Positions 8,439 to 11,441 of a DNA stretch of 11,441 nucleotides are shown piece after piece; position 1 is the first letter of the stretch, and each line of letters starts with the position of its first letter. The notes beneath the pieces are model-generated. The model ran no database searches. It saw nothing but the letters and a program-made list of their open reading frames with translations, and was not told the origin of the DNA. The DNA is from a virus. The stretch lies in UHGV virus genome UHGV-0368337. One strand, given 5' to 3'. The position numbers and the translations under genes are program-made.

Positions 8439-8499
8439 TGCTGCGGGTGCTTGAGGCTGTCTGCCTCGGGCATGCCACCGTAAGGCAGACAGAGAAAAG

Positions 8500-8565
8500 C
8501 CCCAGTTAACATTACGCGTCCTGCAAGACGCCTAACATTAATCTGAGGCCAATTTCATGCTAGAC
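8500..8565 (-). ncRNA. candidate Sok-like antisense RNA (hypothetical)
   Basis: Minus-strand promoter-like TTGCCT (rc of 8595..8600), 17 nt, TAACCT (rc of 8572..8577). The transcript would be antisense to the SD and start of the upstream in-frame ORF at 8557 and contain hairpin 8515..8530. No clean U-tract terminator. Confidence 0.25.
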
Positions 8566-8613
8566 ACATGTAGGTTAGCCTCTTACGCGCCGAAAGGCAA
8601 GGAGAAGCAGGCT

Positions 8614-8769
8614 ATGAAGCAGCAAAAGGCGATGTTAGTCGCCCTGATCGTCATCTGTATTACCGTCATTGTGACGGCACTGGTAACGAGGAAAGACCTC
8701 TGCGAGGTACGAATCCGAACCGGCCAGACGGAGGTCACTGTCTTCACAGCTTACGAACCTGAGGAGTAA
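8614..8769 (+). CDS. hok: Hok/Gef-family type I toxin (51 aa membrane peptide)
   Basis: MKQQKAMLVALIVICITVIVTALVTRKDLCEVRIRTGQTEVTVFTAYEPEE shows the Hok/Gef signature (TM helix, TRK-LCE-R-G-EVA-F-AYE). AAGGCAAGGAGAAG RBS. ORF track 8557..8769 includes an in-frame upstream start with its own GAGG. Confidence 0.85.
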   Translation: MKQQKAMLVALIVICITVIVTALVTRKDLCEVRIRTGQTEVTVFTAYEPEE

Positions 8770-8859: not shown

Positions 8860-8978
8860 CACGTACTGTGGTTGTGAATACGATCGGTATTAGGCTATGC
8901 TAACAACATTAGCCTGACTAATTTTGTATTGACTTGATTTTTGTTAAAGAACAGGACGGAGAAGTAAGGGTACACCCA

Positions 8979-9245
8979 ATGAGCTACGCACTAAAAAAAC
9001 ACCCGCGATTGACTATTCCCCCTCGCGATAAAAGCGTTGTGGCAGCTCCGCGCCCGGCTATCGATGAAAATTGCACTCATCGTGAGCAGGTGAAAAATGC
9101 TTTCGATTTCGGTTTTCTCGTTACGAGAAGGCAATGGAAGAACTTTCAAAAGTGTAATGATGGGTATTGTGCTCTATGGCTGAGATTGTTGAAGGAGTGC
9201 ACTACCTTTCGTTTGATGATCTTACCGAAATTAATCGCCTTTTAA
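8979..9245 (+). CDS. hypothetical protein (88 aa) upstream of and overlapping the doc-like gene; possible non-canonical antitoxin or spurious ORF
   Basis: ORF track 8934..9245; candidate start ATG at 8979 with a purine-rich GGAGAAGTAAGGG upstream. Overlaps the Doc-like ORF by 70 nt in another frame. No Phd/YefM-like or other recognisable signature. Confidence 0.3.
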   Translation: MSYALKKHPRLTIPPRDKSVVAAPRPAIDENCTHREQVKNAFDFGFLVTRRQWKNFQKCNDGYCALWLRLLKECTTFRLMILPKLIAF

Positions 9246-9661
9246 TTGAGCTTCAAACACCAGATGAACCTGTTAGTGTGCTGAGTGTTGATAATTTAAG
9301 TTCTTCTCAGTCTCGTCCCAGCATGGTTCGATGGTATGAACAGACTAATGACATGTTTGTACTGGCATCAGTATTGATTGAAAGTCTGATTCAGAATCAT
9401 CCATTTGCTAATGCAAACAAACGAACAGCTATGATGGCTGGTTATGTCTTCTTGTTGTTGAATGGCTATGAGTTAACAGCACCAGGCGATGAAATCGTGG
9501 AAATGGCAGAGGGACTGGCCTGCAAAACCTATACTCGAGAAGATCTCGAGAACTGGTTGTGTTATTGGTCTCGTGCGTATGACGGCCGGGAATTATGTAA
9601 AACAGGCGCAACTGTTGTTTTGTATGAAACTATCAAGCTTAAAATAGAACAGCAAAACTAA
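9176..9661 (+). CDS. doc: Doc-family (Fic-fold) toxin
   Basis: ORF track 9167..9661 (TTG); first ATG at 9176. Contains HPFANANKRTAMMAGYVFLLLNGY, matching the Doc signature HxFx(D/N)(A/G)NKR rather than the canonical Fic motif. Size is that of stand-alone Doc proteins. Confidence 0.8.
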   Translation: MAEIVEGVHYLSFDDLTEINRLLIELQTPDEPVSVLSVDNLSSSQSRPSMVRWYEQTNDMFVLASVLIESLIQNHPFANANKRTAMMAGYVFLLLNGYELTAPGDEIVEMAEGLACKTYTREDLENWLCYWSRAYDGRELCKTGATVVLYETIKLKIEQQN

Positions 9662-9675
9662 AGGTGCTTCTAATG

Positions 9676-9697
9676 AAAACCCGCTTCGGCGGGTTTT
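9676..9697. terminator. bidirectional rho-independent terminator between doc-like and higA-like genes
   Basis: AAAA-CCCGC-TTCG-GCGGG-TTTT, A-tract on one side and T-tract on the other, between convergent genes. The stem is identical to the hok terminator at 8838..8859. Confidence 0.7.
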
Positions 9698-9711: not shown

Positions 9712-10029
9712 TCATGATATTACCTGGATTCCGTTTTTCTCTACGACTGAAAGAAGGCGAAGAGCGGCACCTCCCGGCCGTTTTACACCACGTTCCCAGT
9801 CTGATATCAGGTTTTTACTGACGTTGAGGTATCTGGCAAAAACAGGTTGAGACAGATGCTCTCGTTCGCGCAGTGCACGGATCCTTTCCGGAGACATTAC
9901 CGGCGCTGGCTGGAGACAAGTTTCATCGAATTCTCGCATAGTCTGTTTCGTTACTGCGCCGATATCATGAAGCGATTCCATCATTTCATGTACGGATGCA
10001 AGCGCATCACTGCGGTAATTTTTACTCAT
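9712..10029 (-). CDS. HigA-like HTH (XRE-family) antitoxin
   Basis: 105 aa; GGAGG 7 nt upstream of the ATG at 10029. C-terminal HTH LSQPVFARYLNVSKNLISDWERG. Directly downstream of the RelE/HigB-like toxin reading frame on the same strand, i.e. toxin-first order. Confidence 0.75.
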   Translation of the reverse strand: MSKNYRSDALASVHEMMESLHDIGAVTKQTMREFDETCLQPAPVMSPERIRALREREHLSQPVFARYLNVSKNLISDWERGVKRPGGAALRLLSVVEKNGIQVIS

Positions 10030-10083
10030 TGGGTACCTCCGTAAACTGACCCTGTAGAATCAGTTGTGCCAGTTGTTCATCTG

Positions 10084-10391
10084 TTAGATTGAGTACGTGA
10101 GGAGCCCCTTCCGAAATGCACTTTCCTCAGTAGCGGTTATATTTTCACGTTCATTTTTTGCGTATGCATATACGAAAAAGGCCCTTGTGCCGACGCGATA
10201 GAAAATGATTGTGCGATAACCGCCAGATTTGCCGCCACCGACTCGTGGCAGACGTTGCTTGATAACGCCGTTACCCAGGTTTGCTGAGATAAGCCCGTTA
10301 TCAGCCTGTTTAACAATTTCGCGCAGTGATTGGTCGGATATTTTGTTTTGCGTGCAAGTCGCTCAAACCAGGCGTTTTTAAAAATGCGCAT
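10084..10391 (-). pseudogene. RelE/HigB-like type II toxin gene interrupted by a -1 frameshift
   Basis: N-terminus MRIFKNAWFERLARKTK from the ATG at 10391. The rest, including the hallmark GGGKSGGYRTIIFYR, is in the -1 frame (...ISDQSLREIVKQADNGLISANLGNGVIKQRLPRVGGGKSGGYRTIIFYRVG...TYSI, stop 10086..10084). Adding one base to the homopolymer at 10341..10344 restores a 102-aa ORF. Confidence 0.6.
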
Positions 10392-10458
10392 TTTTTGTTC
10401 CGTTATTAATGTATAACACATAGTGTTACATTGCGTAGGGATCTGCAATGCCATCAGT

Positions 10459-10488
10459 TTGACAACGTCGCGTGTTCGGGGCTATATT
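10459..10488 (+). promoter_or_regulatory. near-consensus sigma-70 promoter (TTGACA, 18 nt, TATATT)
   Basis: TTGACA at 10459..10464 and TATATT at 10483..10488. Divergent from the higB-like start; faces the structured region and the ORF6N-like gene. Confidence 0.5.
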
Positions 10489-10494
10489 CCTCAC

Positions 10495-10569
10495 GCGCCA
10501 GCAAAACCTGGCGTCGGGATTAGCACCCCGGATATCGAAACGGTGCATAACCGCGCTGGCGGTTTTTTT
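10495..10569 (+). ncRNA. candidate small RNA or transcriptional attenuator (about 75 nt)
   Basis: Starts about 7 nt after the promoter -10. Hairpins CGCCAG-CAAAAC-CTGGCG and GCACC...GGTGC, then terminator-like CCGC-GCTG-GCGG plus T7 (10551..10569). About 165 nt of further structured sequence precedes the next gene. Confidence 0.3.
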
Positions 10570-10733
10570 ATGCGCTAAGCACAGTCACATTCGCGATTTA
10601 TGGCGGGCTGTGTGGGGGAGCCGAAAGGCTCGCCGGATGTTTCGACCGGTAGTGCTAACCCCGCACAGTTCGCCACCACGATGATTAGCACCTGACGGTG
10701 GCGAGGTAAAAATTATCGAAACGCGAGGTCATT

Positions 10734-11354
10734 ATGGCTGTTCAAATTTCTGTCGAAAACCTTTCCCCTGTTACCTATAACCAGATCCCCGTAATTACTA
10801 CTGAACTGTTGGCTCACCTTTACGGAACAAAAATCAAAAACATTTCTGATAACTTTCTGAACAACACGACGCGATTCATGCCCGGAAAGCATTACTTTAA
10901 AATTGAAAAAAACGAATTACGCGAGTTTAAGAACAGACCCGAAACAATCGGGTTAGTTGGTAAAAATGCCCGCTCCCTCATCCTCTGGACAGAACGCGGC
11001 GCAGCCCGTCACGCAAAAATGCTCGAAACCGATCGGGCGTGGGAGGTATTCGAAAAACTGGAAGACTGCTATTTCAGCCAGGGAAAAACAGCACCAACCG
11101 AACAGCAGCCGCAGATTCAGCCACAATTCACAGCCGAAGAAATCATCCTCCTTTGCTACATGCAGCTCTGGATGGAAAAAGCCCAGGACATCAGCAAACA
11201 CCTGTATCCCATTATGAAAGAGCTGAACTCCTCATACACGAACAAGCTGTATGACATTGCGTTTGAGACCATCTACATGGTGACGAAGAACAGAGACGCG
11301 CTACTAAGGAAGGTGCGAATAAGCAGGTCATTTCTTCCCAAGCTGACTCGCTGA
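10734..11354 (+). CDS. ORF6N/KilA-N-like DNA-binding domain protein (phage regulatory or antirepressor-like)
   Basis: 206 aa; GAGG 6 nt upstream. N-terminal region (VTYNQIPVITTELLAHLYG...LILWTERGAARHAKMLETDRAWEVFEKLEDCYF) resembles ORF6N/KilA-N-type phage domains; C-terminal half is Gln/Pro-linked and unassigned. Confidence 0.7.
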   Translation: MAVQISVENLSPVTYNQIPVITTELLAHLYGTKIKNISDNFLNNTTRFMPGKHYFKIEKNELREFKNRPETIGLVGKNARSLILWTERGAARHAKMLETDRAWEVFEKLEDCYFSQGKTAPTEQQPQIQPQFTAEEIILLCYMQLWMEKAQDISKHLYPIMKELNSSYTNKLYDIAFETIYMVTKNRDALLRKVRISRSFLPKLTR

Positions 11355-11405
11355 TTAAAATTTCTCGGATCTGGGCCGATTTTTTTCCCGCAAACACATC
11401 GAATC

Positions 11406-11427
11406 AGCCTATTTAGGCTATTTTTTC
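11406..11427 (+). terminator. weak candidate rho-independent terminator
   Basis: AGCCTA-TT-TAGGCT hairpin followed by ATTTTTT, about 50 nt after the ORF6N-like stop. Short AT-containing stem. Confidence 0.3.
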
Positions 11428-11441
11428 CACCATTTCTGGCG

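What the first reader, a model, noticed from the sequence alone, without database searches (positions are those of the whole stretch)
10084..10391. HigB-like toxin inactivated by a 1-bp homopolymer frameshift while its HigA-like partner is intact
The N-terminus and the hallmark GGGKSGGYRTIIFYR core are in different frames; one extra base in the A/T run at 10341..10344 restores a 102-aa toxin. The downstream HTH antitoxin (9712..10029) is intact with a strong RBS. This is either a sequencing error or pseudogenisation leaving an orphan antitoxin, which could still act as a regulator or anti-addiction module.
Basis: seen in the sequence. Interest (0 to 1): 0.5.

Follow-up and report, generated by a model that had tools for sequence, protein, structure and literature searches.

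The report
Twice-frameshifted prophage toxin, intact antitoxin
A toxin gene of a toxin-antitoxin pair carried by an E. coli prophage is dead, broken by two real single-base deletions rather than one, while its antitoxin partner is intact; this is an ordinary, well-known way for such gene pairs to decay.

Summary
On the minus strand, 10391..10022 is the remnant of a 123-aa toxin of Pfam family PF06296 ("RelE"; nearest solved relative is V. cholerae HigB-2). Intact alleles in other E. coli prophages are 372 nt, and their stop overlaps the antitoxin ATG. The window lacks two bases. Adding one base therefore gives only a 102-aa product with a wrong, truncated C-terminus.

The same two-deletion allele is 100% identical in 17 complete E. 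coli assemblies, mostly O104:H4 outbreak-lineage genomes, and occurs in 4 IMG/VR contigs. It is not a sequencing error.

Other lineages carry each lesion alone or different ones: an extra 1-bp deletion, a 6-bp deletion, an IS66 insertion, and +G in a 77%-identical clade. The 105/106-aa HTH antitoxin (9712..10029) was intact in all 29 copies examined.

The window is the nin region of a decaying lambdoid prophage. Toxin-first erosion that leaves an orphan antitoxin is well documented, so interest is low. Whether the antitoxin is kept by selection is untested.

The parts
10022..10391 (-). Toxin pseudogene (PF06296 RelE-family, HigB-2-like). It is 370 nt where intact alleles have 372 nt / 123 aa.
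   Evidence: Alignment to intact alleles. In-silico repair of 2 bases gives a 123-aa protein 1 aa different from HCP4S3_I4. The intact allele hits PF06296 at E 1.7e-46.
10346..10349 (-). Lesion 1: A4 run where intact alleles have A5 (codon 16). It shifts the core out of the ATG frame.
10105..10108 (-). Lesion 2: GGGG where intact alleles have GGCGG (or GGTGG / GCTGC). The lost base shifts the last 27 codons into a third frame.
10140..10391 (-). What a ribosome starting at the native ATG would make: 84 aa, of which only the first 15 are native. Stop at 10139..10137.
   Evidence: Pfam gives only a weak match to the N-terminal profile positions.
10087..10362 (-). Open stretch of the core frame (PF06296 profile positions 15-95). 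It contains no ATG, GTG or TTG start.
   Evidence: E 3.1e-29. The ORF listing reports no ORF in this frame.
10022..10104 (-). C-terminal 27 codons (APHVLNLTDEQLAQLILQGQFTEVPNE plus stop) in a third frame. The stop TAA at 10024..10022 overlaps the antitoxin ATG region, as in intact operons.
9712..10029 (-). Intact 105-aa HTH (XRE-type) antitoxin, HigA-2-like. Identical to WP_000042397.1.
   Evidence: HTH_3 at E 1e-7. PDB HigA-2 5JAA at E 7.9e-8.
10036..10040 (-). GGAGG Shine-Dalgarno, 6 nt upstream of the antitoxin ATG.
   Evidence: Read directly from the sequence.
9676..9697 (.). GC-rich hairpin with U-tracts on both strands, between the convergent antitoxin and doc genes. Terminator-like.
   Evidence: sequence.

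Best explanation
10391..10022 (minus strand) is a dead copy of a type II toxin gene. It belongs to Pfam PF06296, the RelE-fold family whose nearest solved relative is V. cholerae HigB-2. It sits in the nin region of a lambdoid E. coli prophage.

Shown: two genuine 1-bp deletions split the 123-codon gene into three frames. These are A5->A4 at codon 16 and loss of a C at about codon 96. Translation from the native ATG gives 15 native residues followed by 69 missense residues. The core frame has no canonical start codon, and the C-terminal 27 residues are in yet another frame.

Shown: the downstream HTH antitoxin gene is intact and has its own GGAGG ribosome-binding site.

Inferred: no active toxin is made. 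The antitoxin is probably still transcribed from the operon promoter, translated independently, and acting as an autorepressor with nothing to neutralise. The module can therefore no longer kill on loss or abort infection. It is a decaying remnant, and the antitoxin has simply not been hit yet, or is weakly retained.
For: - Intact alleles of 372 nt / 123 aa, with the stop overlapping the antitoxin ATG, exist in HCP4S3_I4, 2013C-3033, JNEC-KY203, TUM1881 and O157 FDAARGOS_293 and in 6 IMG/VR contigs.
- PF06296 covers residues 1-120 of the intact protein, so both ends displaced in the window belong to the domain.
- The window's three frames carry consecutive parts of that domain.
- The identical two-deletion allele is in 17 complete assemblies at 100% over 821 nt, in AST198 and in 4 IMG/VR contigs.
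- Other toxin lesions exist: A4 alone (FORC_069, ML35, PS2C, LZHX12, phage PhiR12_3), dC+dA (23CRST047), dC plus a 6-nt deletion (L031), an IS66 insertion (NMBU-W12E19) and +G in the 77% clade (O91 RM7190).
- The antitoxin is full-length in all 15 genome or phage copies and all 14 IMG/VR copies.
- Between clades the antitoxin shows 24 nt but only 1 aa difference.
- The surrounding prophage carries other damage: an ISKpn26-like insertion and a private frameshift.
- Toxin-first pseudogenisation and abundant orphan antitoxins are documented (PMC13617665; PMC10790755).
Against: - No expression or toxicity data.
- No consensus sigma-70 promoter was detected upstream of the toxin on the minus strand, so antitoxin transcription is assumed.
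- RefSeq annotates the fragments as ordinary CDSs (68 aa from ATC, 112 aa from ATT), not as pseudogenes.
- The A4-only allele is common and present in an isolated phage. A residual function for that single-lesion allele cannot be formally excluded.
Confidence: 0.9

Rival explanations
1. The frameshifts are sequencing or assembly errors in the window's source, and the toxin is really intact.
For: The window has one private homopolymer deletion, T5->T4 at 9109..9112. None of the 122 complete E. coli genomes carrying that module has it. The source assembly may therefore contain indel errors.
Against: Both toxin deletions are present, base for base, in 17 complete assemblies from different laboratories, in AST198 and in 4 IMG/VR contigs. 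Lesion 2 is not a homopolymer-length error in the intact sequence (GGCGG).
Confidence: 0.03
2. The toxin is still produced by recoding: programmed -1 ribosomal frameshifting, transcriptional slippage at the A-run, or initiation at a non-canonical start. The antitoxin would then still be needed.
For: A -1 slip on CGC-AAA-A would recreate exactly the native sequence. PGAP models CDSs from ATT or ATC starts. The A4-only allele is widespread.
Against: - Relatives have a plain in-frame gene, so recoding is not ancestral.
- The window would need two separate -1 events.
- Runs of 4 are far below the lengths known (established knowledge) to give transcriptional slippage, and neither site is an X XXY YYZ heptamer (sequence).
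- The core frame has no ATG, GTG or TTG and no Shine-Dalgarno.
- The ATT used in FORC_069 is ACT in the window.
Confidence: 0.03
3. The orphan antitoxin is actively retained by selection. It would act as an anti-addiction or immunity factor neutralising related PF06296 toxins of incoming lambdoid phages, or as a transcription factor, rather than being a neutral leftover.
For: There are six distinct lesions in the toxin against none in the antitoxin across 29 copies. The antitoxin protein is nearly invariant between clades whose toxins differ by 18 aa: 1 aa versus 18 aa, so cross-neutralisation is plausible. Toxin-dead alleles are the majority of the near clade.
Against: - The numbers are small. 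If about 4 secondary lesions fell at random on 372+318 nt, all landing in the toxin has p of about 0.08 (own arithmetic).
- The near-clade alleles are almost identical, so there has been little time for decay.
- The examined O104:H4 genomes show a single copy of the module, so no partner toxin is present in the same genome (places_in_record = 1).
Confidence: 0.2

Closest known systems
Vibrio cholerae HigB-2/HigA-2 (PDB 5JAA, 5JA8, 8A0X)
   Same: Toxin-first operon. The toxin core carries the G-G-K-x-G-G-x-R-hIhh motif, matched at E 2.8e-3. The antitoxin has a C-terminal XRE-type HTH, matched at E 7.9e-8.
   Different: Only distant sequence similarity, covering 54 of 123 toxin residues. The window's copy is prophage-borne in E. 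coli rather than in a superintegron, and its toxin is frameshifted twice.
Pfam PF06296 'RelE toxin of RelE/RelB system' (intact E. coli prophage alleles, e.g. WP_077168034.1, WP_001217944.1)
   Same: The intact allele matches the full model (157.8 bits against a cutoff of 27). The window's core frame matches profile positions 15-95. Same position in the prophage, next to hokD and an ORF6N antirepressor-like gene.
   Different: The window's gene is not an open reading frame: two 1-bp deletions.
Orphan antitoxins and eroded type II TA loci (E. coli survey PMC10790755; Photorhabdus erosion study PMC13617665)
   Same: The toxin is pseudogenised while the antitoxin ORF persists. Multiple independent lesions across lineages (for the literature).
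   Different: Nothing of substance; this is one more instance.
Canonical HigB (Rts1-type, Pfam HigB-like_toxin)
   Same: Gene order with the toxin upstream of an HTH antitoxin.
   Different: The Pfam scan of the intact allele returned only PF06296 and no HigB-family model at E <= 0.01.

Membership tests
PF06296 RelE-family (HigB-2-like) type II toxin | Sequence matches the family HMM above its gathering score | tested here: met
   Intact allele: 157.8 bits, E 1.7e-46, profile 1-120. Window core frame: 102.1 bits, profile 15-95.
PF06296 RelE-family (HigB-2-like) type II toxin | A single uninterrupted ORF covering the whole domain (a functional member) | tested here: not met
   The domain is split over three frames by deletions at 10346..10349 and 10105..10108. 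It is a pseudogene of the family, not a functional member.
PF06296 RelE-family (HigB-2-like) type II toxin | Ribosome-dependent mRNA cleavage and growth arrest | not testable with these tools
   Needs a kill/rescue assay. No experimental data were found for this allele.
Type II TA operon, HigBA-type layout | Toxin gene immediately upstream of, and overlapping, a small HTH antitoxin gene | tested here: met
   In intact alleles the toxin stop overlaps the antitoxin ATG by 8 nt. The window keeps the same arrangement apart from the frameshifts.
HigA-2-like / XRE-HTH antitoxin | C-terminal XRE-type HTH with similarity to a solved HigA-2, and an intact ORF | tested here: met
   HTH_3 at E 1e-7. 5JAA at E 7.9e-8 over residues 45-99. 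The 105-aa ORF is intact.
Canonical HigB (Pfam HigB-like_toxin) | Match to a HigB-family HMM | tested here: not met
   PF06296 was the only family reported at E <= 0.01.
Orphan antitoxin | Cognate toxin non-functional or absent while the antitoxin ORF is intact | tested here: met
   One copy of the module per genome in the O104:H4 assemblies.
Orphan antitoxin | The antitoxin is expressed and active (DNA binding or toxin neutralisation) | not testable with these tools
   Only the Shine-Dalgarno and the ORF are seen. No consensus promoter was found on the minus strand.

The most novel reading that the evidence does not exclude
The antitoxin is kept on purpose after toxin loss. Under this reading the prophage uses the orphan HigA-2-like protein as an anti-addiction or immunity factor. 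It would neutralise the PF06296 toxins of related lambdoid phages: the antitoxin is 99% identical in protein between clades whose toxins differ by 15%. That would explain why toxin-dead, antitoxin-intact alleles dominate this clade.
Probability: 0.15. Interest if true: 0.35.

Novelty: already known. Interest (0 to 1): 0.12.

Why it matters
It matters little for biology. It is one more example of toxin-first erosion of a type II toxin-antitoxin module in a decaying prophage, in a lineage (E. coli O104:H4 and relatives) that has been sequenced many times.

The practical value is for annotation:
- RefSeq records list the fragments as ordinary 'RelE/ParE family toxin' CDSs, started at ATC or ATT codons, rather than as a pseudogene. 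TA censuses may therefore count a dead toxin as live.
- The locus shows that apparent single-frameshift pseudogenes should be aligned to intact alleles before being 'repaired'. Here one base would not have restored the gene.

The only open question with some interest is whether the orphan antitoxin is selectively retained.

Tried and rejected
- **Sequencing error.** Rejected because the allele is identical in 17 complete assemblies and 4 IMG/VR contigs.
- **Nested order of events (A4 first, then dC).** Rejected. All four combinations of the two sites exist: intact, A4 only, dC only (each time with a further deletion of its own) and both. This needs recombination between prophage alleles or recurrence.
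- **Programmed frameshift, transcriptional slippage or an alternative start.** Rejected on the sequence and on in-frame homologues.
- **Promoter and operator.** The consensus scan found no minus-strand promoter upstream of the toxin. The inverted-repeat search of 10385..10480 found nothing. The promoter and operator therefore remain undefined.
- **NCBIfam.** No model hit the toxin.
- **First literature search.** It returned nothing specific to this module.
- **Source of the window.** No complete E. coli genome or GenBank phage matches it end to end. The best are FORC_069 at 99.8% and AST198 at 99.7% up to 11314.
- **Not attempted.** Structure prediction, because the intact toxin is not encoded in the window. 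The large protein-database searches, because the family assignment was already unambiguous.

Full report
**What is in the sequence.** Read on the minus strand, an ATG at 10391 opens a frame whose first 15 codons are MRIFKNAWFERLARK. That frame then runs through unrelated residues to a stop at 10139..10137. The motif GGGKSGGYRTIIFYR lies in a second frame that is open from 10362 to 10087, with its stop at 10086..10084. A third frame carries APHVLNLTDEQLAQLILQGQFTEVPNE, and its stop at 10024..10022 overlaps the start of the next gene. The next gene, 10029..9712, is an intact 105-aa ORF preceded by GGAGG at 10040..10036. Pfam PF06296 ('RelE toxin') matches the second frame at E 3.1e-29 over profile positions 15-95. 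It matches the ATG frame only weakly, at the first positions. The split of one domain over different frames is therefore real and not a chance resemblance.

**Where the window comes from.** The 821 nt spanning toxin and antitoxin are 100% identical to 17 complete E. coli assemblies, mostly O104:H4 outbreak-lineage genomes. Over its whole length the window is closest to prophages of FORC_069 (99.8%) and AST198 (99.7%). No complete genome or GenBank phage matches it end to end. Annotation of those relatives shows a lambdoid prophage early/nin region. In order it holds kil, the cI/cro/cII-like regulators, replication genes, DUF551, hokD, a small gene plus doc, the antitoxin and toxin on the opposite strand, an ORF6N antirepressor-like gene, and then ninB...Q.

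**What the intact gene looks like.** Five other E. coli genomes carry an uninterrupted 372-nt, 123-aa gene at the same place, and its last 8 nt overlap the antitoxin ATG: HCP4S3_I4, 2013C-3033, JNEC-KY203, TUM1881 and O157 FDAARGOS_293. PF06296 covers residues 1-120 of that protein (E 1.7e-46). Aligned to these, the window lacks two bases:
- One A from GCAAAAACAAAAT. The window has A4 at 10346..10349, at codon 16.
- The C of GGAAGGCGGCTCC. The window has GGGG at 10105..10108, at about codon 96.

Restoring both in silico gives a 123-aa protein that differs from the HCP4S3_I4 toxin by one residue, F12L. That also restores the frame, but it is not where homologues show the loss. The 'restored 102-aa toxin' would end in GLLTYSI instead of the conserved 27-residue C-terminus.

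**Not a sequencing error.** The two-deletion allele is identical in 17 complete assemblies. It is also present in AST198 and in 4 of 14 IMG/VR viral contigs that carry the module. The window's source does have one private homopolymer deletion elsewhere, at 9109..9112 (see below), so its assembly is not above suspicion. The toxin lesions are nevertheless independently corroborated.

**Pattern across relatives.** About 217 of 5,426 complete E. coli genomes carry the module. In the near-identical clade I found the following states:
- Intact (A5 with the base at the second site present): HCP4S3_I4, 2013C-3033, KY203 and 6 IMG/VR contigs.
- A4 only: FORC_069, ML35, PS2C, LZHX12, the isolated phage PhiR12_3 and 3 IMG/VR contigs.
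- dC only at the two sites, each with a further deletion of its own: 23CRST047 with an extra dA, and L031 with an extra 6-nt deletion.
- Both lesions: the window, O104:H4, AST198 and 4 IMG/VR contigs.
- An IS66 insertion on a dC background: NMBU-W12E19.

All four combinations of the two sites occur. The simplest nested history is therefore excluded, and recombination between prophage alleles (or recurrence) is required. In the 77%-identical clade, O91 RM7190 has an independent +G in a G-run that splits the gene. The antitoxin is full-length in all 15 genome or phage copies and all 14 IMG/VR copies. Its protein is identical across the near clade and differs by 1 aa (24 nt) from the O157-clade copy, whereas the toxins of those clades differ by 18 aa.

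**Family.**
- The toxin is PF06296. By sequence the nearest solved structures are V. cholerae HigB-2 (E about 3e-3, residues 38-91).
- For the antitoxin the nearest are HigA-2 (E 7.9e-8, residues 45-99).
- The antitoxin has an XRE-type HTH (HTH_3 at E 1e-7) and sub-threshold similarity to MqsA/NadS-type models.
- No canonical HigB model matched. 'HigB-like' is acceptable only in the HigB-2 sense.
- PHROGs places the toxin and antitoxin in phrog_5869 and phrog_2104, both of unknown function.

**How it most likely works.**
- Shown: no reading frame can yield the domain. The native ATG gives 15 native plus 69 missense residues, the core frame has no ATG, GTG or TTG, and the C-terminus is in a third frame.
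- Inferred: no active toxin is made, so the module cannot mediate post-segregational killing or abortive infection.
- Inferred: the antitoxin, with its own strong Shine-Dalgarno, is probably still made and represses its own promoter. I could not define a promoter or operator.
- Recoding (frameshifting or slippage) is very unlikely. Relatives are plainly in frame, two separate -1 events would be needed, and the runs are only four bases long.

**Comparison with what is known.** Toxin-first erosion and abundant orphan antitoxins are documented. In Photorhabdus, most non-functional predicted type II TA systems had truncated toxin ORFs, and pseudogenised copies were detected for 41 of the 50 functional systems (PMC13617665). 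In E. coli, orphan antitoxins are highly abundant across sequence types (PMC10790755). This locus is another instance. The one point of practical note is that RefSeq lists the fragments as normal 'RelE/ParE family toxin' CDSs rather than pseudogenes: 68 aa from an ATC start in O104:H4, and 112 aa from an ATT start in FORC_069.

**Open point.** I counted six distinct toxin lesions and no antitoxin lesion in 29 copies. That hints at retention of the antitoxin, but the counts are too small to decide. If four secondary lesions fell at random over both genes, p is about 0.08 (my arithmetic). The alleles are also very young. I give the selected anti-addiction or regulator reading about 0.15-0.2.

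**Verdict.** This is a real, twice-frameshifted pseudogene of a known toxin family with an intact partner antitoxin, in a prophage that shows other signs of decay. It is ordinary and already-known biology, so interest is low.

Noticed in passing
window 9109..9112 (+), within 8978..9156: T4 where all 122 complete E. coli genomes with this module, and all fetched loci, have T5. It frameshifts codon ~47 of the 59-aa gene (phrog_2208, no Pfam hit) immediately upstream of doc (9176..9661, TIGR01550 at E 1.4e-35). That gene is the presumed Doc antitoxin. It is either a private mutation, which would be surprising if Doc is active, or a homopolymer assembly error in the window's source.
   Followed up: partly
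window ~11312..11441 (+): From about 11312 the window leaves all related prophages and becomes the end of a multi-copy element, with up to 43 copies per genome on chromosomes and plasmids. At one matching site the flanking CDS is annotated as an 'IS5-like element ISKpn26 family transposase'. It truncates the ORF6N antirepressor-like gene that starts at 10734.
   Followed up: partly
window 4377 (+): A 90-bp (in-frame length) deletion relative to FORC_069 and AST198. It falls in the 219-nt hypothetical gene downstream of the cII-like gene (L008 4522..4740).
   Followed up: no
window 10482..10680 (+), promoter-like site 10459..10488: Rfam finds isrK (10495..10569), C4 antisense RNA (10596..10680) and its a1/b1 target (10482..10534). 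They lie in the spacer between the toxin start and the ORF6N gene, downstream of an 11/12 sigma-70 match on the plus strand. This looks like a P1/P7-type C4 antirepressor control module diverging from the TA operon.
   Followed up: no
window 8445..8768 (+): A hok/sok type I TA: sok RNA at 8445..8619 (116.9 bits) and hokD at 8613..8768. With doc and the PF06296 pair, three TA modules sit within 2 kb. In HCP4S3_I4 and the O157 clade the doc module is absent, and hokD directly abuts the antitoxin.
   Followed up: partly
L001 6181..6387; L002 6112..6450 (RefSeq annotation): PGAP annotates the toxin fragments as ordinary CDSs using ATC or ATT start codons (WP_228355587.1, 68 aa; WP_226867305.1, 112 aa) rather than flagging a pseudogene. 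Automated TA counts may therefore be inflated.
   Followed up: partly
L012 1230..1601; L031 2562..2930; L002; L003: All four combinations of the two deletion sites exist among near-identical alleles. That implies recombination between prophage copies within about 240 bp, or recurrent loss of the same C.
   Followed up: partly
L010 1201..1573 (E. coli O91 RM7190) and other 375-nt hits: Independent inactivation of the homologous toxin in the 77%-identical clade by +G in a G4 run. It is annotated as two separate 'RelE/ParE' CDSs, and the antitoxin is intact.
   Followed up: partly
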